From Chaetodon trifascialis (Eukaryota): a stretch of DNA of 64,000 nucleotides. The DNA is taken from assembly GCF_039877785.1 (NCBI RefSeq), contig NC_092066.1:5379152-5443151 (forward strand). The letters are read 5' to 3'. The notes under the pieces were generated by a model that saw nothing but the letters and a program-made list of their open reading frames with translations, made no database searches and was not told the origin of the DNA. Shown here in pieces: positions 16,588-40,233 of the stretch; positions within the stretch are counted from its first letter, which is position 1, and every line of letters begins with the position of its first letter. The position numbers and the translations under genes are program-made.

Positions 16588-17078
16588 GTAAGTGAATAGA
16601 TGTTCATATTTATATAACAATAATAATGTAATATTTCACTGTCTGGCATCTTTGCTCTCTCAAAGTGGTATTCAGCCATGCAGATTTCACGTGGAGTGTT
16701 GAGATGTAAAATATCTTCCACGACCTCAATATAATTATGAGAATAAAATTTAATTTGTTCTCTCCTCAAATCTCTGAAACGTCGCATTTGAAAAACTATG
16801 ATTGATAAAAACAGTGACTCAGAAACAATGCCAGCACTCCTCTGGATAATCCACAGAACATGCTGTCAGATGGTTCCTTTATTAGAGTAGCTCCAAAGAA
16901 AAAGCTGATGACAGAAGGTTGTGTGGATTATCAGAAAATCAGAACCTGGTTTCTACGGTTTTGTGGGAGTCGAATGGTTAAATGAAACGATCTGCATGCA
17001 GACGTACACCAGTGGTGAGTGAGAGACGATGACGTTTAAAGATAATGAAGGTTATAACTCTCGTCTTGCTTCTCTCAG

Positions 17079-18021
17079 GGCTTTTGCTGTGACGGCGGAG
17101 AAGGTGCAGAAGGGCATCCGTGTCTTCAACAAACTGTTCTCGGAGCGCGCTGAGAGCCTCTGGCAGCACGTCATCGACCTGAACAGCATCGCAGACGGCC
17201 TGGACAAGTTCAGCAAAAACACAAAGATCGCTCAAATCACCGGCGGCTCCACCAGTGCCATCGGGGGCGTGGCCACCATCGCCGGCCTCGCTCTGGCACC
17301 GGTCACCATGGGAACCTCCTTGATTGTGACAGCGGTGGGACTGGGTGTCGCCACGGCTGGCGGTTTGACGTCGGCAGGCGCCGGCATCTCCAACCAGGTC
17401 AACAACTCTATGGACCGCAAGAAGGTGGAGAAGATCGTGCAGGATTATCAGGAGAAGATGGTCGACCTCAACAAGTGCCTGAAGTTCATCAAGCAGGGAA
17501 TCGAGAACCTGAAGAAGTTCGACCTGATCAAGATGAAAGAACACGCCTACAACCGCGACTTCCCTGTGCTCAGCAGTAGTTTCTACGAGGACGGCGCCAT
17601 GGCAGGAAAGGCCATCCTCATCAACGCAAACGAGATCATGCGCGTGGTGCAGATCGCCAACGTGGCGGGCAGCACGGCGGCCAGAGCGGTCCAGATCGCC
17701 AGCATGGCCACCGGTGTGCTCACCGGACTCTTCGTAGGTATGGACATCTACTTCGTGGCCAAAGACTCCAAAGAACTCAAGAAGGGGGCCAAGTCCGAGT
17801 TTGCCGCCAAAATCAGGGAGGTCGCCACGCAGCTGCACGACGGTCTGGTGGAGCTGAACACGATACGAGAGGAGCTGCAGTGCACCGGGCCGGAAAACAA
17901 GGACGCAGGCGAAGAGAAAGAGAACGAGAAAGAAAACAAATACGACAGTTCAGATGAAGATGAAATCGACCGCATTAAAAAAGCCATTAAAAAGGACATC
18001 GAGAGCCGAGAATACGTTTGA
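17079..18021 (+). CDS. ApoL-repeat gene 1, terminal exon: a complete apolipoprotein-L (ApoL) domain plus a short acidic tail, with the stop at 18019-18021
   Basis: The acceptor is tctctcag|g at 17078, and phase 2 gives K-AFAVTAEKVQKGIRVFNKLF... The translation has the hallmarks of the ApoL family. A glycine/alanine-rich hydrophobic hairpin (KIAQITGGSTSAIGGVATIAGLALAPVTMGTSLIVTAVGLGVATAGGLTSAGAGI) is followed by ...ILINANEIMRVVQIANVAGSTAARAVQIASMATGVLTGLFVGMDIYFVAKDSKELKKGAKSEFAAKIREVATQLHDGLVELN... This matches the long ORF 17029-18021 in the track. An AATAAA at about 19622 could be the polyadenylation signal. Confidence 0.85.
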
Positions 18022-24539: not shown

Positions 24540-26441
24540 GCAGGATGGAGGCGTGTATGATGAAGCCAGAAGTCAAAAAGAAGCCGAAGCTGGTGAGAAC
24601 AGTCACAGGTTTACTGAATATTGTAGAACGTGTAAAAAAACACAGATGGAAATATGAATTACTGCATCATCACTCAAAGAGCCTCATGTTTTCTTCTCTG
24701 CTCGCAGCCTAAACCTCCTCCAAAGCCCACAGAGGTACTGTAACAACCCTTTGATCAGTCAATCATTAGCTTGAGTGGTTGTTTATGTGCGACTTCAGGA
24801 TGTTACAGCGAGTTAAACTGTCGTTACAGAGACAAAGAAATGACCCAGAGAGACCAGCTCCTCTGGTGCCCCCCCGACCTGCAGACACTGTGAGTGCTCA
24901 CCGACCTGGAAGACGTCCTGATCTTTTACAGACCAGAGGTGTTTCTCTGAAGGGTCTGCCATATGTTTTTATTATGTTTACCTTCTACTGGAGGAGCAGT
25001 GTGCCAACATTTCTAAAGATCTGCTAATGTTGAAATAGATTGCATAAGCTGGGTTCCAGTGGAGAGATGTTTTCCACTCTGTGAGGTGGAAAACTGAAAG
25101 ATAATCCACAAAATCCAGATCAGCAACAAAGATATATGTAGTTTTTATGCTGCACACGCATTAAAACTTAACACAGGTGTACCTACAGGCCAGTCTAAAA
25201 CCAGTATGACAAAGTGCTCCACCACTGAACGTGACTGCTTTTAGCTGTGTTCTGTTGTCATAAGTTTTCTTTGAGGAAATGCCCTCTTTGGTTCTTTAAA
25301 TAAAGGTTGAATGAATGAACATTAACACAAGCTGACGTCTGTAATTAGCCACTGATCAGGACTGATATGAGCAGTAAAAACAACAAACTCTCGTAAAGCC
25401 GCTGAAGACACAGAGGAAATATGGAGCACAGGCCACTTTATAAGATTTACTTGGAGACGAAAATATTTTAACCATTCGTGTTTTCTGTGCAGGAGCTGAG
25501 TCAGACACAATACCGCATGAAAAGAGCAGCAATGAACAATGAGGTACCTTCTTTTTTTACATTTCCATTATTTCTGTTTTACTCGATAGTTTCCTGTAAA
25601 GAGAGATCGAAGCGGGGGAGGGGATGATGTGTGAGAATATCCTGGTAAATGTTGAGGACAACCAGACTTTTCTTGATTTAAATACAAGTAAAACAGGGAT
25701 TTGTGATGGCGAAGTGGTTCAGACACATGCTGTGAAAAAAATCATCTTTGAACAAAGAAAAACAAAATGAGATATGAAAGATCATGTGACAAAAATGATG
25801 CTACAGACGCACCACCAAAAAGATCAGTGCTTTAAACATCAGTGTCATGATTTAATATGTGGGTTTACATGTCCAAACTATATTCTGACGTACCAAAAAC
25901 ACTCTTATTATGGCTGCCTTCAGGTGTTTTTCCTCACTTTTTTTGTGTGTTTCAGACCAAAGGAAACTTGATCCAAACAGAGACAAAAGAGAAACCGACT
26001 GAATCTCCCGTGGTTCCACCCAGACCCACAGAAAAGGTACGAAACACCCAAACACTCATCATATCATGATACTCAGCAGTACTAGTATTGTCGTATTTTA
26101 GAGCAGTGAGAACAATTTACAGTGAAGAACCGACCAGAGCTGCACGAGGTTCCACGTTTCTGTTCCTGTTCCAGATCTCTTTTGTTATTGTTCCCTCGTG
26201 TGTGTGTGTTTGTGTGTGTGTGTATGTGTGTTTGTAGGAACTGAATGCCACAACCAGATACAGTGAGCGCAGGAGGGTACAAGCTGAGGACACACAGGTA
26301 CACACACACACACACAATGAAATACTTTGTTCCTCCTTGCTTGGTTTTATAAATCACAGTTATCGTCCTTCCTCTTCCTCATCAGACTTCCAGAGAAAAC
26401 AACCAATCAGAAGCGCCCAAAGATGAGGCAGACTTCAAACA
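24540..26441 (+). CDS. ApoL-repeat gene 2, N-terminal exons: putative start ATG at 24545, then proline/basic-rich VPPRP modules
   Basis: Exons are phase 0 with AG/GT boundaries.
- 24540-24592: ATG at 24545, MEACMMKPEVKKKPKL
- 24708-24734: PKPPPKPTE
- 24830-24889: RQRNDPERPAPLVPPRPADT
- 25493-25543: ELSQTQYRMKRAAMNNE
- 25956-26036: TKGNLIQTETKEKPTESPVVPPRPTEK
- 26238-26297: ELNATTRYSERRRVQAEDTQ
- 26385-26441: TSRENNQSEAPKDEADFKQ
The 25493, 25956 and 26238 exons are paralogous to gene 1 exons 11320, 10688 and 10875. The true initiator could lie further upstream. Confidence 0.5.
26197..26234. repeat. (TG)n microsatellite (imperfect)
   Basis: A gtgtgt run immediately upstream of the acceptor of exon 26238, in an intron of gene 2. 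Confidence 0.9.
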
Positions 26442-26593
26442 GGTATTTCAGCTGGAGCTGTTATCGGCTGTCACGTAGTGCAGTTCAACCCTGATCCCAG
26501 AAACGACGGGACGCTGTGTAAAACATTTCAGAAGTCGGTGATCAGCGAATCCTTCTAATGCTCAATTATTATTATTCCGTGTGCTTTGTTCAG

Positions 26594-29500
26594 AGTGATC
26601 CGACGGTCCTGACTGGGATGTTTCGGCGGAGCCAAAAAGGCCAAACGCCTTCGTTCACTGTAAGCGATGCAGCTGCAGCTCGTCTCTGCTCCGTAAATCA
26701 CACATGACCTCTCTAAGTTAAAACCAGAGGCTCAGTTCAAAACATCATCTGCTTTTTGAAGGTTTTTAGAGTCAGTGTAACTTGTCGTTTGTGTTTGCTT
26801 CACCTGCAGAGGACAATTTTGAAACAACAAAATCTTGATATGTAGGCCTACATGATCTCATAGATGTTGATTCAAGAACTTAAATATACTAATACTCAGT
26901 CACATAAAGCATAAACGTGTGTTTTAGAGCTTTGAATCAGCAGCTGTTGAGTGTCTGTCTGGTTTTCTTTCTTCCTCAGAGCTATCTGATCGACAGCTGC
27001 GCTGAGGAGGAAAAGTCTGACGATGCCCCGGCCAAACAGGCTCCTGGCAGCAAACCGGTGTGTGCGTATGTACATTATGCGTGTGCGTCACTGTTGATGT
27101 TCTCAGCTGGTTTGTGACATGTGACTGCGTTCAACAGAGTGCTCTGAAGGGAGTAATGAAAGGATTACAGTTCAAGTCATCACCGAAGGTATGAAGCACC
27201 GCCTGCCTCGGTGTTTTCTGCTGGTGGCGGCTGCAGTGTTACAGCGTCTTACACCTGTAAAAAGTACCCTCTCCTGTGTGGTGGCGGTGGTAGTAGTAAC
27301 GACATGTGGTTTTATTTTTCTCTGCTGGCACATCCCTGTTGAAGAATCAGTGCATTACATCCTATTTTTTTACATTTCTGTATCAAAATGTTCATATCTT
27401 TCAGTGTTTTACCTCCTGGATTTATTTTAATGTTTATTTTTTATCGGACTCCTTTGGTGGCTTCAGGGTCTTTCGTCCAGTCTGGGACTTTGGTTGCGTG
27501 TCGTTCTCTGTCTGCACTCACTTCCTGTCATCTCTCGGCTTGGAAACATTCTCTCACTGTCAGCATTTAAAACCTGCAGCGTCACAGCTTCACACAGTGA
27601 CACATGTGGGCTTACGGTTACGCGCTGCTGCCTGACGTTGAAATAAAGATAGAGCACAGTAGAAAGCATAAAAGAAGTAAAATACAACATTTTGAAAGGA
27701 GTGCAGCAGCGCAGACTGTGAGTGCAGTCTGGATCTGGAAAGTCATAAAAGCTAAAGTGAAGACACGTTTTTAGCTTTCCTTTAAAAATATTTAGCAGGT
27801 GAGATCTGCCTGTGATCCACAAAGGCTGCTGCTGGGAACACTGGTCAGAATTTATTCTGTTTATTTTAAGTTTTAAATTAAATTTCTCAGTAAGGTCACC
27901 TGAAACTTTGAGGACTTTTGGCTTTTAACTTTAAGATGTTCATCCTCCTTCATCCACAAAGCAGTTGTAAATACGGACGATGAGGTGACTGGAAGCAACA
28001 GGACGATCTTTATGAAACGTTAAGCAGTCAAAATGTCTGTCTGTTCTCTCGTCTGCTTGTACTGATGATAAAATCAGGATGATCATAATGTCGCTGAAGA
28101 TTGGTGTCTCTTCTCTAAGGCCAGTGTGGAGCCAAGTCCAGGCGGCGTCACGGAGGACGCAGGCGCAGAAAAGGAACAACCTGCAGAAAGAAACAAGCAG
28201 GAGAAGAACGCAGAACCCAAACAGGTAAGAGACGAATGACAGCGTCTGACTGCCGTCGCTAATATGTGCTTTCACAGTGTGTTCACTTAACGGCGTTAAC
28301 ATCTGATTTTTTGTGTCAACCTCTCCGTCAGGACTTCGGAGGTCTGATCGCCGGAATGTTTCGGAAAACTCCCAAAGAGAAAACGCCATCTCCCGCGCTG
28401 ACGGTACCATCGAGTCTTCTGCTCGTTTTCTGGTCCAACGTTCTGACTTTCAGCCTCTGACTCTCTGTTTTGCTCACTGACAGGTCAGCAAAGCAGACAG
28501 CGACCCTGAAGATGCAGAAGAAGCAGAGGAGAAAACATCTGAACAATCCCACGTAGGTCTTCTATTTATTTCTTCTTTTTTCGCTCTTCTGAAACATAAG
28601 AACATTTGGAGTGGAGGGGGGTTTTAAGGATGGATCCAGGCCCCCGCTATGTGTGGCTATGAGCTTCTCACTATCAGCAGATCTGTGAGGGGATTCAGTA
28701 ATCAGCGTCTGCAGTCAGTCAGCTGACGACGGTTTGACCTCGTCAGCGGCACAGAGCTCAAACTGTAATCTCTTCAGTTGTCACTCACTTGTTTAGTGTT
28801 TGGATTCCCAGAAAAAGTCAGAGTCAGATAAGCGTCCTGTGTCTGAACATCCCAGCCACTTTCAGGCGGCGTGTCTTCTGTTTCCTTTATTTGTATCATC
28901 ACAAACTGAAATCTTTTGCAGGAAAAAGGAGGCTTCTTCTCCGGCATCCTTAAAAAACCCAACAAAGCACCAGAGGAGACTCCTGCACAGGTGAGGGACA
29001 AAAAGTGGCTTCTTCCTCCTTAAAACACAACAGAAAAGTTAATGTTGGTGTTTTTCATTTCACTGTGTGTGTTTCTTGCTTCCCGGTGGTGTTTCAGGAG
29101 AATCTGAGTGTCAGCAGCGAGCTGTCCGCCAGCAGTGACAGTCTGTCTGAAAACAAGGTGAGCAGCTCTGCGTCACCGTCCCAAACTTATCTTTAATGAC
29201 AGTGTACACACAGACGCCTCACTGACCTGACCTTGACCAAAATAAATCCTCCATTACTGAACGTGTGCTCGTGTCTGTCTCAGGAAAAAGGAGGAATATT
29301 CAGCGGGTTGTTCAAGAAGTCTCCGAAAGCGGCAGAAGCGGCTCAGACCGACGAGGTGATGGAGCTGAAAACAAGTCAGCAAGATAAATAACGTCATCAG
29401 TTTAATCCACACTCACACTGAACCAGCTCGTGTTGTGTTGCAGGACCAACAGTCTCTACATGACAGTCTGTCAGGCAGTAACGACAATCTGTCTGAAAAC

Positions 29501-32500
29501 TCAAAGGTGAGCTCAGCAGTGTTCGTATGACAGCAGCATCGTCAGTGTTATCACATGCAGCAGTCACTGACCCTGCAAATCTGCCTGATGTCAGCAGGAG
29601 AAAGGAGGATTTTTCAGCGGGATCCTCCGGAAGTCTCCCAAGATTCCCGGAGAGGGAACACCTGGGCAGGTAAAAACGGTTTTGCACATGTTTTAGATGC
29701 TCAGTAACAAAACAAACAGATGGAGTTCGGCGTGTGAGTACATGAAAGATCAGAGTAATCGAAGTGGTCAGCGACGGGGATCTTCACTTTCTGTCAAACC
29801 GCTGAGACTTTGTTGTTTATGTTTGTTTCAGGATAAACAGCAGCTGCAAACGGACCCATCAGACAGTAAAGAGACTGAGAACAACAGCACGAACGTAAGG
29901 AACCCAGAGTGACTGAGTTAAGGAGGAGGCTGACTCTTATATCCACTTTGAACACTCCTCTTTTCCTGCTAACGACTGACTTCAAGCCTGATGTGTTAAT
30001 AGAAGCTGATTTGTAGCTTTACGTATTTCTTTCCTCCTTCCTGTATTTCCTGTACCAATAACTGAAAGAAAGAAAAGGTTTTTGCGAGCGAGTTCTTCTC
30101 TTCTTCACGTTATCAGGAGAAAGGAGGCGTTTTCAGCGGCATGTTCAAGAAATCTCCCAAACTGTCAGAGAAACCCCGACTGGAGGAGGTAAAGATTTAT
30201 AATCTGAGCATCTGCAGAATGGATGAAGTCATCTGAAAAGTAACTAAAGCTCTCAGACAAATGTAGTGGAGTAAGGTTACATTTCTATTACTCTAGTAAA
30301 GTACAAGTACCTTGAATTTTGTACTTAAGTACAGTCTGAATTGTGGCTCACGGCCTCCTCAGCCTTCCTGTCAATCTTCAGTCTTCATACTCTCACAGGT
30401 GCAGTAACTCTTGTGTTGCTCGTGTTGTGTTCAGGGTGCAGAGTCGTTGCACGGCGAGCTCTCCATTAGCTCCGACAGCCTGTCGGAGAACAAGGTGAGT
30501 CCTCATGATGGAAGAATATCTGCAGCTCCGGAGGAGGATCGGCCTCCTGATGCTGAAATGAAAGAAAAGAGGTCGTCGGTTTGCCTCAATGTGTTTTCTG
30601 CTCTCTGTAGGAGAAAGGCAGTTTGTTCAGCGGACTCCGGAGAAAGACTCCCAAAGCAGCCGGAGAGGTACGGCTCCTCAAACACGAGCAGGTGTCATGA
30701 GCATGACCACATGCAGCGCAGCCAGTTCGATGGATGTTCTTGAATGTGCTCACAGGCTGTAACATGAGTCATTGAAGTATTGAAGCATCTTCTGTTTCCT
30801 GGAGCTGCTCTCTGTTTCTGACTGTTTTATTCTCATTTCAGGAGAATCTGTCGGCACAGAAAGATCTGTCAGCCAGTAACGACAGTCTGTCTGAGGCTGC
30901 CAACACCAAGGTCAGCTTTTGCTGTAAAAGGAAGATTTGATTTCATTGTGTACATTTTCTATATTTCTTCATTAATTCGTTGTTGTCTTTCTGATTGTAG
31001 TAGTATGACGTGTCTCCATGTGTTTCCACATATGTTCTATGTCTGGAAGACTGAATTTAACTGTGACGTGTAAAATAAATGACTGTGTTTCAGGAGAAAG
31101 GAGGCGCCTTCAGTGGAATATTCAAGAAGTCGACCAGGCTTGCAGACAGTCCTCCCACAGAGGAAGTAAGACGTCCTCTCTGTTTGTCCCATCCAGTCTT
31201 CCTTTAATATTCTTAAACAGGTGTCAAGTGTCTCATAGGTAGTTCCTTTTAATCTCAGGTGTAAAAGAGCAGTCAGGGAGCTGGGCTCAGTGTTAATGAT
31301 GAAACATACTGTGGCTCTGACTGTTGTCGTCTTTCCTCAGGACAAACAGCCACCAGGCGATGAGCTCTCAGGTAGCAGTGAAGCTCCGTCTGAGAGCAGC
31401 GCCAAGGTGAGTTTTTCTTTTCTGCTTCATTCAGAAAACGGTCCTGAATAACTTCAGCTGAAGAGAGAGCACCCACTGCATGAACATGTGTGTTTCAGGA
31501 AAAAGGAGGAATATTTAGTGGAATATTTAAGAAGGCTCCAAAACCTGCAGACGCTGCTCAACCGGAGGAGGTAAAACTGTCATTTACAGCAAAGTCGACC
31601 TGTTTCATTACCTGTTTGTTGGTGGAAAATTAGGAACAAAAACTCAAGTGATTAGACGTTGGTGCAGATTCAGTATTTGAGCATTTTTTTTAACATTTTC
31701 ACATGATCGTCATGTATCCCATGACCATCTGTTATCAAGATATACTAATGCAAAACCTTTTATCACTTCTCACAGGACGAGTCTCCTGACAAAGAGCTCT
31801 CAACCAGCAGCGAAAATCTATGTGAGAACAAACAGGTGAGCGAGTTTAAGACGATGAATGACTTTGTTTCGTAAATGCTTCACACTCTCGCAGCTCATCC
31901 TGAAGCCTTTTTCTTGTCTGTCTCATCAGGAGAAAGGTGGACGGCTGCTCAGCGGACTCCTGAAAAAGACTCCCAAAGCGTCTGGAGAAAAGACGGAGTC
32001 GCAGGTGAGTTAGTGTTTACAGGACGTGAGATCAGTTTCCAAACCTGCACACAAATTCACCTGTTTCATAAAACATCAACGGGCCTGTTTCAGGACAGAG
32101 AGGCTCAGAGCGAACTGTCGGCCAGCAACGACGACCTGTCTGAGGGCAGCAGCACCAAGGTGAGCAGCGCAGCAACAAAAAGCTCCAGGTACACGTCTTC
32201 TGAGGGAGCGTTCACTGACACCCTGCTCTCTTTCAGGAGAAAAATATCTTTAGCAACATGTTTAAGAAGCCGCAGAAAGCAGCAGAGGGTGCTGCAGCAG
32301 ACAAGGTACCGAGATTTGATTCGGCCCATTAAATCAGCGTTATTTTAGTAAGTGTAGTGGATTTTTACTGTCGTCTGGTCTGAATGCAGGAGCTGGAGGA
32401 GAACAGTAAAGATCGGTTATCAGGCAGCTGTGAAAATCTGTCCGACGCCGCCCCGAAGGTACTTCAGCATCAAAAGAAAGCCTCTTCTTCTCTGTTTTTC

Positions 32501-35423
32501 TGTGTGCTGCTGTCACATGAACACGGACTGAAACCTGATCACAGAGATCAGATTGAGGATGAGATGATATCTGTGTGTTCAACTAGAACAGATTACAAAT
32601 ACAGATAGGCACATCCTCGAGTGTGAGTGCGTCAGTTTGAGTCAGGTTGAGCTGACTTCCTTTGGGAGCGGCAGTAACTTCTGACTCTTGATTCACTCTG
32701 AATGTGTTCACTTGAGAAAATTGACAAAGATCTGTGTTTCAGGAGAAAAAAGGAGGCCTGGCTGGCATCTTCAAAAGGTCATCCAGCATCGATAACCTTT
32801 TCGATGAGGTGAGTGTCGGCCCTGTGCGGCCTCTGTTACGCCTGACGATAACGTCACTTTGACATGAATGAAATGAAACCGTGTTAATGGCTTTTTATCC
32901 CTGGTCTTAAATCAGGAGAAAGGTGGGCTGTTCAGTGGACTTCAGAGGAAGAAAACACCCAAAGCGTCTGGAGATGAAGCAGCTGCAGAGGTGAGTTTTA
33001 TGTTACGCTGCGAGCATCACTGTCTGTGGTTATCGTCCGCATTAATACAACGTCCATTGCTATTTTTTCAGGACAAAGACGACCAGAAGGAGCTGATGGC
33101 AAGTAATGACAGTCTGTCTGAAAACAACACCACCAAGGTACAGTGTTTATTTAAATTCACTTTAACATGCAGCAGACTTTCTCATGTACATAAAAAACAC
33201 ATTTTAGAATATTTTAGTTTGTTTTTGCTTCAGTTTGCACTTAAAAAATGAACATTTCGACATGCCAGTGCTGTTTTGTTTTATTTTTAACTGTGTTCAA
33301 TGTCTGTTTGCAGGAGAAAAGTATTTTCAGTGGCATGTTCAAGAAGACTTCCAAACCAGCAGAGGAGACGACAGCAGACGAGGTACAGTAATGACTCCTT
33401 CACATGAAGTTTATACTTTTGCTCTTAGTTTTGCTCTTTCTTATGTTTTATTTTCGGTTCAGGAATTAAACGCCGGTGATGATCAGATGTTCTCTGCCAG
33501 TTGTGAAAATCTGTTAGAAGCGACCACATCAAAGGTGTGAATGATGTCCGACCATCACACACAGCCTGTTTTTCTCTGTTCTGCCACTTACGATTGATTG
33601 TTTACGTGTGGATGTTTCGTCCGTTTCAGGAGAAAACTGGAGGACTGGCAGGGATCTTCAAGAAGTCTCCCAAGCCGGCTCCACGCTCCATTGTTACTAA
33701 GGTGACCGGAGGAGCTCGCTTTGTTTGATCTCATTTCTGTTTTTTATGGTAAAATTCTTCAGAAATAACCTTCAGCAAGTTGAAAAAAAAGTTCCTTTTT
33801 GTCCTCCAGGATCCGCTGAGCGACTCAAAGGAGCTGTCCGCCAGCTGCGACAGCCTCGTAGAAACCGCTGAGGTGAGACCTGAAGTCTGTGGATGCACTT
33901 GGTGACACTCAGAACAGAAAGCACGAGAAAGAAACGCTCAGCACACTTAAACCCTGCTGGACCAGCACTACCAGGAGACCTCGTGATTTAGACATTAGCC
34001 GCCACATCTGTACTTTATGTGGTGCATTCACACAAAATAAATTAAATCTGTATTTCAGTTTTATACTTTGTCCTCCAAGTACGACGTTGAAGCCCTGCGT
34101 GGCATCAGTGTTTCATTAGACGAGCGTCCATTCAGCAGCCACATTAATGACACAGTTTAGGGTTGTTTTTCCGACTTTCTTCATGTGTTACAAGCATAAA
34201 TACATGTTTGCAGCTCGTTCACATCAAGCAACAGCTGCTTTGCGGCTGTGCTTTAATGCGACAAACTGTTGTTGTCTGTCGTCGCTCATTTCAAATCTCA
34301 GCGAAGCCGCTGCTGCTCAACATGCAGCGAGCTGCGATCAAATCTCGTGTTCGTTCAGTTCAGCTTTAACGTCTGTTTCCTGACAACAGAAAACAGATGT
34401 TAAAAGAGCATTTGAAGCTCAGTTTGCAGAGCCTTCCTCTCTCCTGATCCTCTGCCAGCAAACATATAAGACAGATTGTCGGTGCCATTATTTACAGCTT
34501 TACATTTACTTTTTAACATCCCAGTTGGTTTTTGAGCTGCGACCCAGATGTTTCAGTGTCAGTAGCTGCGTTTCCATTACAGTTGTTCGCAAAATAAAAG
34601 CGATATTTCTGAAATTTCGACAAAGTTCAAGTGCTACTTGCAGGTGTTTCCATTGAACGGTGTTTTGCGAACTAACCGAAATTCTCGTAAATTCTCGGCC
34701 GTCCCGCGAGACTGGAAGATGGCCGAAAGCGTTATGCGTCTCGGTACACTGATCTCAGGAGCTGGTACGGCTGTTGCTGTCCTTATTATGAACAGAAGGC
34801 GGAGGCAACGTATAACTGTTCAAAGGCGAAGCCCTTATGTGTGGCAGCGGCCACGAATAAGGGATTTCTGGGAGAAGATTGTAAATGAGGAATTCACAGA
34901 CGAACTGTGGATACAACATTTTCGGATGACCCGGGCCACGTTCAACGAGCTTTGCGATGTTCTTGAACCTCTTGTGGCACCAGATGCGACATGTAAATGC
35001 GAAAAAAGTGTTTCCATTACACTTTTGCGATACGCTTTTATATTGACACGTCTGAAAAACCACCTCATGAGAGCGTAAAAATGTTTTTGCGATATTTGAG
35101 AGGATTTTCGAAATATAGGTGTTTCCATTACCAGTATTTTATTGCGATATTTAGGTTTTGCGCATTTCTAGGGGTAATGGAAACGCAGCTACTGACTCCA
35201 AACACTGAAATTTATTTCATTTTATTTTGCAGGAGGATCAACTGTTTACTAGTCAGGATAATCTGTTGGAAGCTGTGAGCGCCTCAAAGGTGAGTCTTGT
35301 AGAGTGTATTATTATTCTGTCAGCTCGTTCGGACTTTCAATGAATGCTTCATGTTTTATCTGTTGAACAGGAGAAAAAAGGAGGGTTTGGTGGAATTTTC
35401 AGGAGGACGCCCAAAACACATCA
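26594..35423 (+). CDS. ApoL-repeat gene 2, exon-pair repeat array: about 33 short phase-0 exons, mostly alternating type A (EKGG-FSG-FKK-PK) and type B (D--ELS-S-DSLSEN--K)
   Basis: All exons have AG/GT boundaries and lengths that are multiples of 3.
- 26594-26659: SDPTVLTGMFRRSQKGQTPSFT
- 26980-27057: SYLIDSCAEEEKSDDAPAKQAPGSKP
- 27138-27188: SALKGVMKGLQFKSSPK
- 28120-28224: ASVEPSPGG...EKNAEPKQ (AAG acceptor)
- 28332-28403: DFGGLIAGMFRKTPKEKTPSPALT
- 28484-28552: VSKADSDPEDAEEAEEKTSEQSH
- 28922-28990: EKGGFFSGILKKPNKAPEETPAQ
- 29098-29157: ENLSVSSELSASSDSLSENK
- 29284-29355: EKGGIFSGLFKKSPKAAEAAQTDE
- 29444-29506: DQQSLHDSLSGSNDNLSENSK
- 29598-29669: EKGGFFSGILRKSPKIPGEGTPGQ
- 29832-29894: DKQQLQTDPSDSKETENNSTN
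- 30117-30188: EKGGVFSGMFKKSPKLSEKPRLEE
- 30435-30494: GAESLHGELSISSDSLSENK
- 30611-30667: EKGSLFSGLRRKTPKAAGE
- 30842-30910: ENLSAQKDLSASNDSLSEAANTK
- 31094-31165: EKGGAFSGIFKKSTRLADSPPTEE
- 31341-31406: DKQPPGDELSGSSEAPSESSAK
- 31499-31570: EKGGIFSGIFKKAPKPADAAQPEE
- 31776-31835: DESPDKELSTSSENLCENKQ
- 31930-32004: EKGGRLLSGLLKKTPKASGEKTESQ
- 32094-32159: DREAQSELSASNDDLSEGSSTK
- 32237-32305: EKNIFSNMFKKPQKAAEGAAADK
- 32390-32458: ELEENSKDRLSGSCENLSDAAPK
- 32743-32808: EKKGGLAGIFKRSSSIDNLFDE
- 32916-32990: EKGGLFSGLQRKKTPKASGDEAAAE
- 33072-33137: DKDDQKELMASNDSLSENNTTK
- 33314-33382: EKSIFSGMFKKTSKPAEETTADE
- 33463-33534: ELNAGDDQMFSASCENLLEATTSK
- 33630-33701: EKTGGLAGIFKKSPKPAPRSIVTK
- 33810-33872: DPLSDSKELSASCDSLVETAE
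- 35233-35289: EDQLFTSQDNLLEAVSASK
- 35370-35423: EKKGGFGGIFRRTPKTHQ. Confidence 0.7.
34551..35209. mobile_element. non-autonomous Harbinger (PIF/Harbinger superfamily) miniature DNA transposon in an intron of gene 2, carrying a remnant of the HARBI1-like transposase N-terminus
   Basis: Terminal inverted repeats are tttcagtgtcagtagctgcgtttccattac (34551-34580) and gtaatggaaacgcagctactgactccaaacactgaaa (35173-35209). Sub-terminal gtgtttccatta(c) repeats occur at 34644, 35010, 35121 and 35170. The internal ORF 34638-35078 encodes ...RRRRQRITVQRRSPYVWQRPRIRDFWEKIVNEEFTDELWIQHFRMTRATFNELCDVLEPLVAPDATC..., the conserved N-terminal region of Harbinger/HARBI1-type transposases. The DDE core is absent. 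Confidence 0.65.
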
Positions 35424-35640
35424 GGTACGATTTTCGAGAGCGACAGACCAAGTGAGGGGAGCAGTCACATTCTTGAACACAAATAAAGAACACAGTTAGC
35501 AGCGTGATGTGAAATGATGCTAATAACAGGTATAAATGCAGAGAGCTAGCATTTTGAGTGCATTAACTGATCCCTATAAACTCCTGAATCCTGCACAGCT
35601 GTTAAACATTTATCTCTGCTGCCAATCTCTTCTTCTGCAG

Positions 35641-37342
35641 GAGAGTGAGGACATGGAGGCCCCGGAGGGAGGCGGGCTGAGACGCAGGAGAACCATCAAG
35701 AAAAAAAGACGGGTGAGCTGTCTGTTGTCCACGTTAAACACAGCTCGTCTTCAAAGTCGTGAAAGTTTGGAAAATGCCTCATTTTAACCGTTATGTTTTC
35801 AAGGCTGCAGTAGGAATGTGCTTGAATCTGAATATAGTCCTTGCACAGTGCTTGATTTTCAGCATGATTGTGTTAAAGGTCTTTCCTCATCGACGAACCC
35901 TTCTTCTCTCGGTTTGTTTTCTCAGGTCGTGTCATTCCGAGTCAAGACAACTCTTCCCAAAATACCGAAGATAAGTTTAACTTCTCAGGTAAGTGCTGAG
36001 CTCTTCCAGCTGATCCTTAGTTAACACTCACTGCGCTGTTTTCTACCTCGATCCTGTTCTTTGACTGCGTCACCACAGAGAGAAACATGCCTCATCCGCT
36101 TTTTATTCATATTTCCTTTGTTTTCTGTTTTTAGTATTAACAAGTGCTAAATTTCTCTAATGACATCAATTATTCTCTCCCCCGCCCCTACAGAGTTCAG
36201 ACCAGATGCCCATTATTGAGGAGGCCGTTGAGCTGCAGGACATGAGCCCAGCTCAGGTAACATGATATTATAATGCAGACATTTAGTGATGTTCACAAAC
36301 ATCCAATCAAGACTCAAACTGAGCCCAGATGTTCACTGAACATCTGTGTATGAATGCCTTGTTTCATTAGCCAGTTATTAAAATTTTACAAACGTAACAT
36401 CATATAAGAATCAGCAAATTAAATCCCTTATGCAAAGCTCAGCGCTGCTCATAAGAATCTCAGCCTGCACAAACAGGAACATGCTCAAAGCATTATGGGT
36501 GTTTTTAATAATATTGTTGGTAGTGTGATTCAATTAGTCATTTAATCGTGTATTTCTTTTGTAAAGCACAGCCTTTAGTACCAGTCACCACTCCACACCT
36601 GCAGCCTGTGAAGAATTAGCATTTAGCTTTTAGTTAGCTTAGTTTGAAGTGATCATGAGCGATGTGTGTGACAGTGAACACACTGGAAGAAGAAACCCTT
36701 TGCTGAACGTCAGCTATATAAAACCATACCGACAGTCAGCTGGTGATGGTTTATGGGATGCTGACAGGCACACAGAGGGAAGGGTCGTGGCAGATGCTAA
36801 CTCTTCACACTGAATTGTTTTCCAGGAGAGCTCAGTGGAGGTCCAGCCTGTGGAGATGGCTGCTTACCCCTCTGAAGACGACCCCCATGAACTTCAGGAG
36901 GTGTGTTTCTGGGACACTTTCACACCTGGAGTGTGGTTCATTTAGTCCAGAAAAGAGGCAAAATTAGATACTGTCGCAAACAAATAACTGATAATAAGTA
37001 CTATTAATATTACTACACTGCAAATTAGCTTTTCATTGACAGAGGTGTCTGTTTTCAGGAGAGTGATGAGTTGATGGAGTGGTGGAACACAGTCAAAGGT
37101 TGGTTTGATTGTTTTCACCCTTTGTTTGTTTGGACTGTTTGTTTAGCTGCTCCACCAGGAGAGTTATCACGGATGTCAGTGAAGACACACACAAAAATAA
37201 ACATAATAATTTGAGTGTAAAAGTCATAAAAAGATAAAAGAACCAGACACAAAACACTGTTTTACATATTTGCTTGCTGGTGGTTTCCAGGCTGGGCAGA
37301 GTGGAACGAGACATCCAATTTCCAGGAGGATGAGGAGGAGAT
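35641..37342 (+). CDS. ApoL-repeat gene 2, linker exons between the repeat array and the ApoL domain
   Basis: - 35641-35712: ESEDMEAPEGGGLRRRRTIKKKRR, a basic cluster that looks like a nuclear localisation signal (NLS)
- 35926-35988: VVSFRVKTTLPKIPKISLTSQ
- 36194-36256: SSDQMPIIEEAVELQDMSPAQ
- 36826-36900: ESSVEVQPVEMAAYPSEDDPHELQE
- 37059-37098: ESDELMEWWNTVK, phase 1 out
- 37291-37342: (G)WAEWNETSNFQEDEEE, phase 2 out
The last two are paralogous to gene 1 exons 15963-16002 and 16536-16587, with the same EWWNTV / W-E-- motifs and the same phases. Confidence 0.6.
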
Positions 37343-37541
37343 GTGAGTCTCATTTATGCTTAAAAAGTCTTACATTCATCGTGGTGAACCCTGCAGAAAC
37401 ATGTTGTTCTGTATTTGTCAGCTTTGGGGTTTAAATGTAAATATATTAAGACTCCATGTTTTGCTTTGTTCCTCAAATTTTGAACATTAGAACTTTAAAC
37501 TGCACCTCGTGAGTCTCACGCCTTCACTCGTGTCTCTCCAG

Positions 37542-37956
37542 GGCGCTGGAGCAGGCAGCTGATCGCGTCTACATGGCAGCTCGTCTGTTTGTGCGCCTTT
37601 TCAACCAGCGGGGGGCGTCCTTACAGCATCGCATCCTGGAGCTTTTGGCTCTGGCCGACGCTGCGGATCAGTTCCACAAGAAAACGGTGACGGCTGCGGT
37701 GGGGGGAGGGGTGGCCAGCGTCGCGGGCAGCGTGGCAACCATCACGGGGCTCATCCTGGCGCCGTTCACATTCGGTGCCTCCATCATTGTCATGGCGGTG
37801 GGCATCAGTGTGGCGACGGCGGGCAGCATCGCCTCAGCGACAGCCAATATCACAGATACAGTTCACTCCAACATGGACCGAAAGAAGCTGGAGAAGATGA
37901 TCCAGAGCTACCAGGAGGAGATCAAAGACATCAGAGAGTGTCTGGAGTTCGTGCAG
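37542..37956 (+). CDS. ApoL-repeat gene 2, ApoL domain part 1 (the hydrophobic G/A-rich hairpin region)
   Basis: The acceptor is ctctccag|g at 37541. Phase 2 gives M-ALEQAADRVYMAARLFVRLFNQRGASLQHRILELLALADAADQFHKKTVTAAVGGGVASVAGSVATITGLILAPFTFGASIIVMAVGISVATAGSIASATANITDTVHSNMDRKKLEKMIQSYQEEIKDIRECLEFVQ, and the donor is cag|gtgagg at 37957. The region is collinear with gene 1 residues of the 17079-18021 exon. It overlaps track ORF 37573-37998, whose read-through into the intron hits a stop. Confidence 0.85.
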
Positions 37957-38059
37957 GTGAGGAACCTCAGGTGTTACACATATCCGGTGTTTATGTGAGT
38001 GTGTACTGACAGACAGAGGTCCATCATAGTCAGATATGATCAGATCAGACAGTGAAGTT

Positions 38060-38460
38060 TGGCTCATCTCTCTCTGTGTCTCTTTCCCTCGCGCTCTCTC
38101 TCTCTCTCCCTCTGTGTGTTTCTCTCACTCCCTCTCTCTCTCTGTTTGTGTCTCTCTGTCTGTCTCGTTCTCTCTTGCTTCCCCCCCTTTCTGTGTGTGT
38201 CTCTCTCCCTCCTTCCCTCCCTCCCCCACTGTGTCTCTCTCTCCCTGTGTGTCTACCTCTCTCTTTCTGTGTGTGTGTGTCTCTGTCTCTCCCCCTCTCC
38301 ACCTCCCTCCCTCCCTGTGTCCTTCTCTCCCTGTGTGTCTCTCTCTCCCTCCTTCCCTCCCTCCCTCTCTGTGTCTCTCTCTCTCTTTTTCTGTGTGTGT
38401 CTGTCTCTGTCTCTGTCTCTCCCTCTCCCTCTTCGCCTCCCTCCCCTTGAGGTTTCTGCC
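38060..38460. repeat. TC-rich simple/low-complexity sequence ((CT)n, (CTCC)n and (CTGT)n variants) filling the intron that splits the ApoL domain of gene 2
   Basis: About 400 nt are almost entirely C/T, with interspersed tgtg. This generates spurious long ORFs on both strands (38036-38536 +, 38045-38632 -). Confidence 0.9.
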
Positions 38461-38585
38461 TGTTAAAAGGAAGTTTTTCCTCTCTGTAGATAAAGATTTT
38501 GGGGTCTGTCCCAGCTCTATATGGAAAGTGTCCTGAGACAACTTCTGTAGTGATTTGGTGCTGTATTGTCTCTGTGCGTCTTGTA

Positions 38586-40233
38586 GGCCGGTATGGACAC
38601 CCTGCAGGAGTGGGACTTTGAGAAATACTCACAGAGTGCTGCCAAAAAGGCTCTGAACCACAACCTGAAGCACGTGATGAAGGAGGGCGGCCGTGCCGGA
38701 AAAGCCCTGATGATCAACACCGATAAGCTCATCAGCACTGTGCAGGTTTTGGGCGCTGCAGGAGGCGCCGCCAAAGCCGCCCAGGCCATCAGCGTCACCA
38801 CAGGGGTCATGTCGGCCCTCTTCCTGGCTCTGGATGTTTTCTTCCTCGCCAAAGACTCCCACGAGCTCCGCAAGGGCGCCAAAACTAAGTTTGCCAAAAA
38901 GATCCGGGACGTCTGTAAAGAACTTCAAGACGGCCTCCTGGAGCTGAACAAGGTGAAGACGCAGCTGCAGAAGACCATGGACGGCATAGAGGTGGAGGAG
39001 TACGAGGAGATTGAGGAGGTGGAGGTGGAGGTGGACGAAGATTTAGAGTCGGATCCGAAGAAGCTGGCCGAGTTGGAAAAGGAGCTGGACATCCTGGAGG
39101 AGAAACTGGACAGGAAGGTCGAAGAGGAGCAGAAGAAGAGTAAAGAGATGGAGAAGGAAAACTTGAAAAATAAGACTGAGAAAAAGGAGGAGAAGAGCGT
39201 TAAGGAAAAAGGAGAGCCACAGGAAAAGAAGAAGGAAGAGGAAACGGGAGAAAAAGACGCTAAGAAAGAGGGAAAGAAGGAAAATAAGAAGGGGAACAAA
39301 GGTGAAGAAGAAAGCAAGCTTGAGATCCCTGACATGGAAAAAGAGCAGAAAAATGAGACCCTCAAAGAGGCCAAAGAGGAAGTTTTAAAGGAACAATCTC
39401 AGAAAGGAAAGAAGAAGGACAAAGACACCGAGAACCGAATTACAGCTTCAAAAGAAAAGGACGAGAGCGAGAGAGACACAATGAGAGACAGCGGAGCAAA
39501 TAAAAAGACAGACGAGAAGGGAAAAGAGGGCGTTAAGAGCAGATCAGGTGACTCCAAAAAGGAGGACTGGGGAGGAAAAGCAAGTTCTGAGAGGGTCAAG
39601 ACAGAGAGAGACAGTGAAAGGAGTCAGAGCAGGAGAGAGGAGGAAAGAGTGATGAACAAAGAGAAGGAGGAGGAGAGCGGGAGCACGAGGAGGCACAGCA
39701 GCAGGAGCGACAAAGACAGACCCCACAGGAGTGAAAGAGGGAGCAAACATGATGAGGAAAGAGGCACCAGCAAATACAGCGACAGGACGGAGAGCCGGAG
39801 GATGGAGGAGGAGAGAGGAGTGAGGGACTGGAGAGCTGAGATGGCAAAAAGCAGAGAGGAGAAGAGAGAAAGCAAGGGAGGACAAGAAGCTAAGAGAGAG
39901 ACGGCGAGGGAGGATTCGCATCGGAGTCACGGAGCGGCGTCGAGGAGGGAGCATCCGGAGAGAGAGGAGAGGAGTCACTACAGGAGAGGAGCAGCCCCGC
40001 ATGATGACCAGAGGGAGAGAGACGAGAAACGAGGGAGCAGGATCGAGAGTGCGAGGAGGCAGTTTGAGAGGGCGGAGGAGGAGGAGAGGGCGAAGAGGAG
40101 AGAGGATGGAGAGTGTCAGAGGAGGGATCAGCAGAGGAGAGGAGGTGAGGAGAGAGACAGGGAGCACGGACACAGCCGGCGAGGATCCCGAGCGCGATCC
40201 AGCGTGCTGCTGGAAGACGGACTGTACATTTAG
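38586..40233 (+). CDS. ApoL-repeat gene 2, terminal exon: ApoL domain part 2, then a long K/E-rich and a long R/E/D/S-rich low-complexity tail of about 400 aa, with the stop at 40231-40233
   Basis: The acceptor is cttgtag|gcc at 38585, and phase 0 gives AGMDTLQEWDFEKYSQSAAKKALNHNLKHVMKEGGRAGKALMINTDKLISTVQVLGAAGGAAKAAQAISVTTGVMSALFLALDVFFLAKDSHELRKGAKTKFAKKIRDVCKELQDGLLELNKVKTQLQ... This is homologous to the second half of the gene 1 ApoL exon. The tail continues as EVEEYEEIEEVEVEVDED...KKEEKSVKEKGE...RSDKDRPHRSERGSKHDEERG...RRGSRARSSVLLEDGLYI*. It corresponds to track ORF 38593-40233. An AATAAA lies at about 40532. Confidence 0.85.

What the first reader, a model, noticed from the sequence alone, without database searches (positions are those of the whole stretch)
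26594..35423. Gene 2 array: about 33 mini-exons with irregular A/B order and divergent units, suggesting an older, expanded and shuffled version of the gene 1 array
This array is more than twice as long as the one in gene 1. It contains irregularities: two A exons in a row at 32743 and 32916, degenerate A-like exons (27138, SALKGVMKGLQFKSSPK), and non-motif acidic exons (26980, 28120, 28484). Together with gene 1 this points to ongoing birth and death of exon units, which makes the locus a natural experiment in exon-array evolution. Repeat number may be polymorphic between individuals.
Basis: seen in the sequence. Interest (0 to 1): 0.7.

Follow-up and report, generated by a model that had tools for sequence, protein, structure and literature searches.

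The report
Ancient mini-exon array in fish ApoL gene
The 33 tiny alternating exons are real and encode a long floppy, alternately charged arm on a teleost apolipoprotein-L-domain protein, but the array is old, orderly and conserved exon by exon between fish orders, not a recently shuffled or unstable repeat.

Summary
Observation confirmed. Window 26594-35424 (+) holds 33 canonical AG..GT, phase-0/0 mini-exons (51-105 nt) with the stated sequences. They belong to a gene spanning 24545-40233 that ends in a Pfam ApoL domain; NCBI names its orthologs apold1a. Gene 1 upstream is the apol1-type paralog.

Interpretation partly supported. The units are old. Similarity between them stops at the exon borders, and the longest exact repeat is 21 nt. 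At least 28 of the 33 exons have collinear one-to-one orthologs in Cottoperca gobio, including every "irregular" exon (dN/dS 0.22). The A-A junction is the seam of an ABABA block duplication (exons 21-25 ~ 26-30). The "non-motif acidic" exons sit in B positions. This argues for inherited order, not shuffling, and makes an assembly artefact or unequal-crossover copy-number polymorphism here unlikely.

Turnover does occur elsewhere: fresh duplicates in the Scomber, salmonid and Dissostichus proteins and in gene 1, and near-loss in cyprinids.

AlphaFold2 predicts the orthologous array to be fully disordered. A cores carry +3/+4 and are aromatic; B exons carry -2 to -5 and are serine-rich. RefSeq isoforms skip single exons.

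The module matches no Pfam family. I found no paper describing it, and every named true hit is a teleost. It is a new member of a known kind (tandem exon-duplication arrays). Function is inferred only.

The parts
24545..24592 (+). Gene 2 first coding exon (MEACMMKPEVKKKPK..); 3' boundary approximate
   Evidence: tblastn of Scomber P0001 and Cottoperca P0007 N-termini
24708..26442 (+). Gene 2 pre-array exons: 24708-24734, about 24845-24889, 25493-25543, 25956-26036, 26238-26297, 26386-26442 (proline/lysine-rich N-terminus)
26594..26659 (+). Array exon 1, A-like: SDPTVLTGMFRRSQKGQTPSFT
   Evidence: ortholog in L001 at 12701; skipped in Girardinichthys isoform X7
26980..27057 (+). Array exon 2, acidic, in a B position: SYLIDSCAEEEKSDDAPAKQAPGSKP
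27138..27188 (+). Array exon 3, degenerate A: SALKGVMKGLQFKSSPK
   Evidence: 81% score to the Cottoperca ortholog
28120..28224 (+). Array exon 4, acidic, in a B position (35 aa)
28332..28403 (+). Array exon 5, A-like: DFGGLIAGMFRKTPKEKTPSPALT
28484..28552 (+). Array exon 6, acidic, in a B position: VSKADSDPEDAEEAEEKTSEQSH
   Evidence: ortholog skipped in Girardinichthys isoform X8
28922..28990 (+). Array exon 7, A
29098..29157 (+). Array exon 8, B
29284..29355 (+). Array exon 9, A
29444..29506 (+). Array exon 10, B
29598..29669 (+). Array exon 11, A (peptide identical to the Cottoperca ortholog)
29832..29894 (+). Array exon 12, degenerate B: DKQQLQTDPSDSKETENNSTN
30117..30188 (+). Array exon 13, A
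30435..30494 (+). Array exon 14, B
30611..30667 (+). Array exon 15, A (LFSGL..KTPKA subtype, as in exons 21 and 26)
30842..30910 (+). Array exon 16, B (peptide identical to the Cottoperca ortholog)
31094..31165 (+). Array exon 17, A
31341..31406 (+). Array exon 18, B
31499..31570 (+). Array exon 19, A (no ortholog found in the Cottoperca locus; present in Scomber and Dissostichus proteins)
31776..31835 (+). Array exon 20, B (same distribution as exon 19)
31930..32004 (+). Array exon 21, A; first exon of block copy 1 (21-25)
32094..32159 (+). Array exon 22, B; block copy 1
32237..32305 (+). Array exon 23, A (EKNIFSNMFKK subtype); block copy 1
32390..32458 (+). Array exon 24, B (..SCENLSD subtype); block copy 1
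32743..32808 (+). Array exon 25, A with its own acidic B-like tail (EKKGGLAGIFKRSSSIDNLFDE); last exon of block copy 1
   Evidence: (97% score to Cottoperca)
32916..32990 (+). Array exon 26, A; first exon of block copy 2 (26-30), which creates the A-A seam
33072..33137 (+). Array exon 27, B; block copy 2
33314..33382 (+). Array exon 28, A (EKSIFSGMFKK); block copy 2
   Evidence: ortholog skipped in Girardinichthys isoform X5
33463..33534 (+). Array exon 29, B (..SCENLLE); block copy 2
33630..33701 (+). Array exon 30, A (EKTGGLAGIFKK); block copy 2
33810..33872 (+). Array exon 31, B
   Evidence: conserved in salmonid, Chanos and cyprinid proteins
34558..35196 (.). 639-nt MITE-like transposon with perfect 23-nt terminal inverted repeats, inside the long intron 31; not part of the coding array
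35233..35289 (+). Array exon 32, B (forms the B-B pair with exon 31)
35371..35424 (+). Array exon 33, A (EKKGGFGGIFRRTPKTHQ); last unit, recognisable in Anguilla, Chanos-lineage and salmonid proteins
35641..37343 (+). Linker exons between array and ApoL domain: 35641-35712 (basic RRRRTIKKKRR), 35926-35988, 36194-36256, 36826-36900, about 37059-37103 (EWWNTVKGW), about 37287-37343
37542..37956 (+). ApoL domain, first exon (includes the glycine/alanine-rich hydrophobic hairpin)
   Evidence: (PF05461, E = 5e-31)
38587..40233 (+). ApoL domain, second half, plus a roughly 420-aa Glu/Lys/Arg-rich tail ending ..EDGLYI and the stop codon

Best explanation
Shown. The region is the N-terminal coding array of a teleost ApoL-domain gene (window 24545-40233, + strand; orthologs carry the name apold1a). 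Thirty-three symmetrical phase-0 mini-exons encode about 750 residues. Basic, aromatic 'A' cores (EKGG-[IVFL]-F-S-G-[ILM]-F-K-K-S-P-K, net +3/+4) alternate with acidic, serine-rich 'B' segments (..ELSASNDSLSEN..K, net -2 to -5).

The array grew long ago by tandem duplication of AB exon pairs and of larger blocks; ABABA exons 21-25 were copied to give 26-30. The introns then diverged completely, while each exon acquired its own identity and has been held by purifying selection. The 'irregularities' are inherited features of this fixed architecture, shared with other percomorph orders.

Inferred. Because every exon is phase 0/0, any of them can be skipped without breaking the frame, so splicing can vary the number of motifs per protein. 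The product is most likely a disordered, multivalent arm attached to the membrane-inserting ApoL domain. The A cores would act as short membrane- or partner-binding stickers. The B segments would act as acidic spacers phosphorylated by casein-kinase-type enzymes, which could switch those contacts off.
For: Exon structure: (33 of 33 exons AG/GT, length divisible by 3, one frame).

Gene identity: PF05461 ApoL, E = 5e-31. There were 187 homologs; all 120 listed are teleost and nearly all carry ApoL. Gene-2-type proteins are named apold1a in Sardina, Pungitius, Chanos and Pelmatolapia.

Age of the units: similarity between units is 60-86% and confined to exons, with no intron similarity. The longest exact repeat is 21 nt.

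Stability: collinear one-to-one orthologs for at least 28 of 33 exons in the Cottoperca locus L001. Exon nucleotide identity is about 85%, against 60-80% in the alignable parts of orthologous introns. dN/dS = 0.22 over 1200 nt.

Block duplication: five consecutive exon pairs with spacings of 887-1077 nt, reciprocal best hits, and p about 5e-5 against random same-type partners.

Expression and splicing in relatives: all 32 junctions are spanned by annotated teleost proteins. An intron-free Logan RNA-derived contig, L002, carries a salmonid-like gene-2-type ORF of 1118 aa. Girardinichthys RefSeq isoforms differ by single array exons.

Disorder: AlphaFold2 on the Scomber ortholog with an alignment gives pLDDT < 50 and no secondary structure across the whole array, while the ApoL helices reach 70-77.

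Charge alternation.
Against: There are no transcript data from the window's own species. The best database relative is only 64-69% identical, so exon use here is inferred from orthologs and sequence signals.

RefSeq isoforms are model predictions, and repeated exons can mislead read alignment.

The functional part (membrane or partner binding, phospho-switch) rests only on composition and on the known behaviour of ApoL domains. No tool here tests it.

Cyprinids, including zebrafish, keep only 1-3 degenerate units, so a long array is not indispensable.

The dN/dS estimate used only equal-length exon pairs, which favours the better-conserved exons.
Confidence: 0.72

Rival explanations
1. The array is an evolutionarily restless, shuffled and expanded derivative of the gene 1 array. 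Unit birth and death is ongoing at this locus, and copy number probably varies between individuals.
For: Unit numbers and recent duplicates differ between lineages. The Scomber protein has two identical copies of the exon 9-10 unit. Salmonid and Dissostichus proteins repeat larger blocks. Gene 1 of the window holds three AB units that are 82-93% similar. Cyprinids have nearly lost the array. Megalops paralogs share almost identical units.
Against: In the window's gene 2 no two units share intron sequence, and none exceeds 86% identity over 86 nt or less. Order and identity of at least 28 of 33 exons, including every irregular one, are shared with Cottoperca. The A-A seam is a block-duplication junction also present in Scomber, Notothenia, Dissostichus and the P0152 protein. 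Gene-1-type and gene-2-type are distinct paralogs, both present in Elopomorpha and in Clupeiformes.
Confidence: 0.15
2. Assembly artefact. The array is inflated or collapsed because repeats were mis-assembled.
For: The region is repetitive at the protein level, and I could not inspect read-level data.
Against: There are no Ns. The longest exact repeat is 21 nt. Every unit and every intron is unique. The same exon series exists independently in the Cottoperca chromosome assembly and in the Scomber protein.
Confidence: 0.02
3. The mini-exons are not real coding exons. They would be chance open segments or decayed pseudo-exons strung together by eye.
For: No RNA evidence from this species was available. 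A few exons (2, 4, 6, 12, 32) are poorly conserved in sequence.
Against: dN/dS is 0.22. Exons are more conserved than introns. All junctions are found in annotated orthologous proteins. An intron-free transcript contig joins orthologous units in a salmonid-like fish. Motif occurrence is strand- and frame-specific.
Confidence: 0.03
4. The 20-25-residue units are amphipathic lipid-binding helices, analogous to the 11/22-mer repeats of exchangeable apolipoproteins. On this view the arm is a structured lipid-binding domain, not a disordered one.
For: Unit length is about 22 residues. The protein carries an apolipoprotein-L domain. A cores contain paired hydrophobic residues next to lysines.
Against: AlphaFold2 predicts no helix anywhere in the array. 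Units are rich in Gly, Pro and Ser (composition). No Pfam apolipoprotein family is hit even at E <= 1.
Confidence: 0.07

Closest known systems
APOLD1 / apolipoprotein L family (Pfam PF05461), specifically the teleost genes annotated apold1a (gene 2 type) and apol1 (gene 1 type)
   Same: The C-terminal ApoL domain, with its hydrophobic Gly/Ala-rich hairpin, scores well above the Pfam cut-off. Orthologs carry these names in NCBI and UniProt. An APOLD1-like gene is regarded as the ancestor of the family (PMC8557400).
   Different: From memory, mammalian APOLD1 and the APOLs have short N-termini. The roughly 750-residue A/B arm has no counterpart in any named non-teleost hit. It is not mentioned in the zebrafish apol1 paper read here or in the APOL evolution paper.
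Titin PEVK and collagen-type arrays of short symmetrical exons
   Same: Many small phase-0 exons of similar length arose by tandem exon duplication. They encode a disordered or extended repetitive segment and can be used as cassettes.
   Different: Here the repeat unit is a pair of unlike exons (basic A plus acidic B) with a higher-order ABABA block. The array sits on a membrane-inserting ApoL domain and is limited to teleosts. The comparison rests on my general knowledge and was not tested here.
Two-exon repeat units with higher-order blocks: NBPF Olduvai doublets and LPA kringle IV-2
   Same: The unit of duplication is two exons, and larger blocks are duplicated as well.
   Different: Those human arrays consist of near-identical multi-kb units including introns, and they vary in copy number between people. 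Here the introns are unrelated and the longest exact repeat is 21 nt, so the feature that drives their instability is absent.
Basic-aromatic membrane-binding motifs (MARCKS effector domain) and FxFG-type Phe repeats in charged spacers
   Same: A cores combine Phe, Leu or Met with a Lys cluster and nearby Ser. They recur many times in a disordered chain with charged spacers.
   Different: This is a resemblance of composition only, recalled from memory. There is no sequence homology, no family-model hit and no binding data.

Membership tests
Apolipoprotein L domain family (PF05461) | Significant match to the ApoL profile above the curated cut-off | tested here: met
   Gene 2: E = 5.1e-31, 108.6 bits against a cut-off of 25.9. 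Gene 1: E = 5.1e-37.
Teleost apold1a orthology group | Closest full-length relatives are the genes named apold1a, with the same architecture: proline-rich N-terminus, A/B array, RRRTIKKKRRVVSFRVK linker, EWWNTVxGW motif, ApoL domain, charged tail ending EDGL[YN]I | tested here: met
   Scomber P0001 is 69% identical over 100% of the array query. Sardina P0151 and P0152 share every element. Names are given. The names come from automated pipelines.
Orthology to mammalian APOLD1 | Conserved synteny and reciprocal best match with human APOLD1 | not tested
   No tetrapod sequences or synteny were examined. Only the gene symbol suggests this relationship.
Tandem exon-duplication array | Adjacent exons of the same phase and similar length that are detectably homologous to each other | tested here: met
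   33 of 33 exons are phase 0/0 and 51-105 nt long. Exon-to-exon DNA identity is 60-86%. Protein similarity matrix.
Tandem exon-duplication array | Higher-order (multi-exon) duplication blocks | tested here: met
   Exons 21-25 against 26-30: five collinear pairs, p about 5e-5.
Copy-number-variable exon macrosatellites (LPA KIV-2 / NBPF type) | Near-identical repeat units that include intron sequence and so permit unequal recombination | tested here: not met
   There is no intron similarity between units. The longest exact repeat is 21 nt. Tandem Repeats Finder reports nothing in 26.6-35.4 kb.
Copy-number-variable exon macrosatellites (LPA KIV-2 / NBPF type) | Observed unit-number differences between individuals | not testable with these tools
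   No second assembly or reads of the species were found. Look-ups of window proteins returned nothing.
Alternatively spliced cassette array | Transcripts or isoforms that differ by whole array exons | tested here: inconclusive
   This is seen in orthologs only. Girardinichthys isoforms X5, X7 and X8 each lack one array exon. Epinephelus and Gymnodraco gene-1-type isoforms lack whole AB units. These are RefSeq models, and no data exist for the window species.
Exchangeable-apolipoprotein amphipathic helix repeats | Predicted helical 11/22-mers and a match to apolipoprotein repeat families | tested here: not met
   No helix is predicted in the array. No Pfam hit at E <= 1.
FAM21/WASHC2 CAP-ZIP or LFa repeat proteins (suggested by some database names) | Match to the corresponding Pfam model | tested here: not met
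   No such hit for the window array, for P0079 or for P0044 at E <= 1. The names appear to be driven by low sequence complexity.
Intrinsically disordered region | Low predicted order, no secondary structure and a biased polar/charged composition | tested here: met
   pLDDT is below 50 over residues of about 32-937 of the Scomber ortholog. Ser+Lys+Glu+Asp+Gly+Pro make up 59% of residues.

The most novel reading that the evidence does not exclude
The A/B arm is a teleost-specific invention that turns an ApoL pore or membrane domain into a multivalent, phosphorylation-tunable tether or scaffold. Its valency would be set by cassette splicing and by lineage-specific unit gain and loss. If the gene names reflect true orthology, the zebrafish 'apol1' used to model human APOL1 kidney disease belongs to this long-armed gene pair and is not a simple APOL1 counterpart, so those orthology claims would need revisiting.
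Probability: 0.2. Interest if true: 0.55.

Novelty: new member of a known kind. Interest (0 to 1): 0.4.

Why it matters
The locus gives a clean, datable example of how a two-exon unit multiplies, forms higher-order blocks and then freezes into individually conserved exons. The neighbouring paralog and other fish lineages keep duplicating or losing units, so stable and unstable states of one array type can be compared directly.

It also flags an undescribed protein module that matches no Pfam family. I found no paper on it, and the AB-unit profile hits only 102 cluster representatives among 1.84 billion. The module sits on genes carrying the names apol1 and apold1a. The short zebrafish apol1 model has been used as a stand-in for human APOL1, and the 2015 paper read here does not mention such an N-terminal arm.

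The practical consequence is modest. Better gene models are needed, because many annotations split or mis-name these genes (claspin-like, titin homolog, dao-5-like). The arm also yields a testable hypothesis about how it regulates an ApoL domain.

Tried and rejected
Genomic locus of the closest ortholog: Scomber P0001 is not on record, so I used Cottoperca instead.

Species identification or a second assembly: exact look-up of two window ORFs found nothing. The third homology search, with the gene 2 last exon, gave at best 64% identity.

AB-unit profile in the word-indexed database: it returned only 10 tiny fragments. The exhaustive representative search replaced it.

I predicted the Scomber ortholog instead.

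Pfam on the array gave nothing, even at E <= 1. This rejects the database names hinting at FAM21/CAPZIP, nucleoporin, titin, claspin, dao-5 or starmaker.

Literature: 'apold1a' returned 0 papers. Searches on APOL evolution and zebrafish apol1, and the three papers read, gave no description of an N-terminal exon array.

Non-teleost hits of the AB profile (a Bursaphelenchus protein, Grimontia adhesins, a beetle ankyrin-2-like protein) are partial, low-complexity matches. I rejected them as relatives.

I considered whether a decayed A exon hides in the long intron between exons 31 and 32. The orthologous Cottoperca intron is only 212 nt, and almost half of the window's intron is a transposon, so I rejected this.
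Full report
**What is in the sequence.** The window is eukaryotic and fish-like, with CA/GT microsatellites and short introns. Reading 26.4-36.5 kb shows a series of short open segments on the + strand, each preceded by a pyrimidine tract and AG and followed by GT.

After fixing two boundaries, there are 33 exons of 51-105 nt between 26594 and 35424. All are phase 0/0 and all lie in one reading frame.
- A exons in a row at 32743 and 32916;
- a degenerate A exon at 27138;
- acidic exons at 26980, 28120 and 28484;
- an array more than twice the size of gene 1's 14 exons (4601-8496).

Loose A and B motifs occur 20 and 19 times, only on the + strand. Codon shuffles give 0.1 and 0.5.

**Which gene it is.** Downstream of the array lie three linker exons and then an ApoL domain (PF05461, E = 5e-31). 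The domain is split by one intron and followed by a long Glu/Lys/Arg-rich tail that ends at 40233. Gene 1 has the same domain in a single exon, 17029-18021. Mapping orthologous proteins places the start codon of gene 2 at 24545.

A search with the array found 187 relatives. All 120 listed are teleost proteins, and nearly all carry the ApoL domain. The best is a Scomber scombrus protein, 69% identical over the whole query. Source names are mostly artefacts of low sequence complexity (claspin-like, titin homolog, dao-5-like, starmaker-like). The consistent names are apold1a for the gene 2 type and apolipoprotein L1 / 'apolipoprotein L, 1' for the gene 1 type.

Both types occur in Megalops, under consecutive locus tags on one contig, and in clupeiforms. 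The Cottoperca locus also shows an ApoL gene directly upstream of the gene 2 ortholog. The tandem pair therefore predates the teleost radiation, and gene 2 is not a derivative of gene 1.

**Are the exons real?** No RNA data for this species could be found, so the evidence is comparative.

The Cottoperca gobio locus (L001) carries the same series. At least 28 of the 33 exons find their best match in collinear order. Exon nucleotide identity averages about 85%. Several orthologous introns still align in part at 60-80%, which confirms positional orthology. Across 1200 nt of equal-length exon pairs, dN/dS is 0.22; A-type and B-type exons behave alike.

Every one of the 32 exon-exon junctions is spanned by at least one annotated teleost protein, with 57-91% identity across the junction. 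One Logan contig from a sequencing run (L002, 4743 nt) carries an uninterrupted 1118-aa gene-2-type ORF. It is therefore a spliced transcript, and it joins orthologous units.

**Is it an assembly artefact?** No. There are no Ns. Tandem Repeats Finder reports nothing in the array. The longest exact repeat is 21 nt. Each unit and each intron is unique.

**How old and how orderly the array is.** Within gene 2, DNA similarity between units is 60-86% and stops at the exon borders. This means old duplications followed by selection on the exons only.

The similarity matrix shows structure, not shuffling:
- Exons 21-25 (A B A B A) pair one by one with exons 26-30. Spacings are 887-1077 nt, with p about 5e-5 against random same-type partners.
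- The A-A junction at 32743/32916 is the seam between these two block copies.
- Exon 25 also carries its own acidic tail (SSSIDNLFDE).
- The pairs (24,25), (29,30) and (32,33) share a B(..CENL..)/A(EKxGGxxGIF) subtype.
- The three 'non-motif' acidic exons sit in B positions between A-like exons, so exons 1-24 keep a strict basic/acidic alternation.

These features, including the seam, are present in the Scomber, Notothenia, Dissostichus and Cottoperca proteins and in part in Girardinichthys. The last four exons can be followed into salmonid, Chanos and cyprinid proteins.

**Where turnover does happen.**
- Gene 1 of the window has three AB units that are 82-93% similar, including about 20 nt of flanking intron.
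- Gene-1-type proteins of other fishes carry from three to at least five such units.
- The Scomber protein has an identical duplicate of the exon 9-10 unit and lacks exons 12-13. Salmonid and Dissostichus proteins repeat larger blocks.
- Megalops paralogs share almost identical units.
- Cyprinids, zebrafish included, retain only one to three degenerate units.

The family is therefore a fair 'natural experiment', but the array in this finding is its stable state.

**What it probably does.** AlphaFold2, run on the Scomber ortholog with a 20-sequence alignment, gives pLDDT below 50 and no secondary structure for the whole arm. The ApoL helices are modelled at 70-77. The composition is 59% Ser, Lys, Glu, Asp, Gly and Pro. 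A cores carry +3/+4 with one or two aromatic residues. B exons carry -2 to -5 with four to eight Ser/Thr residues in S-x-x-E/D contexts.

RefSeq isoforms of the Girardinichthys ortholog differ by single array exons. Gene-1-type isoforms in groupers and dragonfishes differ by whole AB units. The universal phase-0 symmetry allows exactly this.

My inference is a disordered multivalent arm on a membrane-inserting domain. The basic-aromatic cores would act as stickers for acidic membranes or a partner. The acidic serine-rich spacers would be regulated by phosphorylation. Valency would be adjustable by splicing and, over evolutionary time, by unit gain and loss. This step is inference only. The amphipathic-helix alternative is disfavoured by the absence of any predicted helix and by the lack of a match to apolipoprotein repeat models.

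**How new it is.** The arm matches no Pfam family. An exhaustive profile search of 1.84 billion cluster representatives finds only 102 hits. All 20 named hits that are true matches are teleosts, and the three non-fish hits are low-complexity noise.

I found no paper describing the arm. The 2015 zebrafish apol1 study worked from a 2.6-kb locus model (PMC4492502).

The proteins themselves are already in public databases as predictions. Arrays of duplicated symmetrical exons are a familiar kind of gene architecture. I therefore rate this as a new member of a known kind and of moderate interest.

Noticed in passing
window 34558-35196: A 639-nt MITE-like DNA transposon with perfect 23-nt terminal inverted repeats (GTCAGTAGCTGCGTTTCCATTAC) lies in the 1360-nt intron between array exons 31 and 32. 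It explains most of that intron's unusual length. The internal ORF fragment (..FRMTRATFNELCDVLEPL..) resembles Harbinger-type transposases from memory, but it gave no Pfam hit.
   Followed up: partly
window 6390-7816 (gene 1): Three AB exon units (6411-6625, 7226-7465, 7557-7811) are 82-93% similar, and the similarity extends about 20 nt into the flanking introns. These are the youngest duplicates in the window and the most plausible place for copy-number variation.
   Followed up: partly
window 9214-9267, 9861-9914, 12259-12309, 12769-12819 (gene 1): Gene 1 contains two further repeated mini-exon types, ..KLNPFRSANK and TKVKKxxRHNPFMPR... Both are conserved in gene-1-type proteins of other fishes, and one copy behaves as a cassette in grouper and dragonfish isoforms.
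   Followed up: partly
window 37957-38586, especially 38067-38432: The ApoL domain of gene 2 is interrupted by an intron that holds a 366-nt CT-rich low-complexity tract. In gene 1 the whole domain is one exon (17029-18021).
   Followed up: no
window 38950-40233: Gene 2 ends in a roughly 420-residue Glu/Lys/Arg-rich tail. Its last residues (..EDGLYI) are conserved in full-length orthologs from Takifugu and Channa (..DGLYI) and, as ..GLNI, from Cottoperca and sardine.
   Followed up: partly
window 32790-32945 (exon 25/26 junction): Splicing exon 25 to exon 26 creates ..IDNLFDE|EKGGLFSG.., an LF-acidic-LF arrangement that is highly conserved (97% score to Cottoperca). This may be why some databases name relatives after FAM21/WASHC2. 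The Pfam model itself is not matched.
   Followed up: partly
window 57370-57735, minus strand: An exon encodes an RNA-recognition motif (Pfam RRM_1, E = 8e-14). From memory the sequence looks like the RALY/hnRNP-C group. It belongs to a neighbouring gene on the opposite strand.
   Followed up: partly
window 401-925: A 174-aa ORF (..LDYCNSLL..LQxVQNxAAR..) looks from memory like the C-terminal tail of a retrotransposon reverse-transcriptase ORF. It gave no Pfam hit.
   Followed up: partly
proteins P0342, P0325 (Danio rerio, Ctenopharyngodon idella): Cyprinid apold1a-type proteins are only about 670-720 aa long and keep one to three degenerate A/B units. The long arm is therefore largely lost in the main fish model organism.
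   Followed up: partly
proteins P0031 and P0095 (Megalops atlanticus): The two paralogs in tarpon carry almost identical AB units (EKGGMLSGMFRRSPKPAE..DNLSTHSELSASNDSLTD..). This suggests exchange or concerted evolution between the neighbouring genes in that lineage, unlike the pattern in percomorphs.
   Followed up: no
locus L001 (Cottoperca gobio), 10001-30875: The public annotation splits the gene 2 ortholog into two gene models (P0007, 571 aa, without ApoL; P0014, 1029 aa). A fused or partly deleted copy of exons 22/23 lies at about 21293. Such arrays are evidently hard for annotation pipelines.
   Followed up: partly
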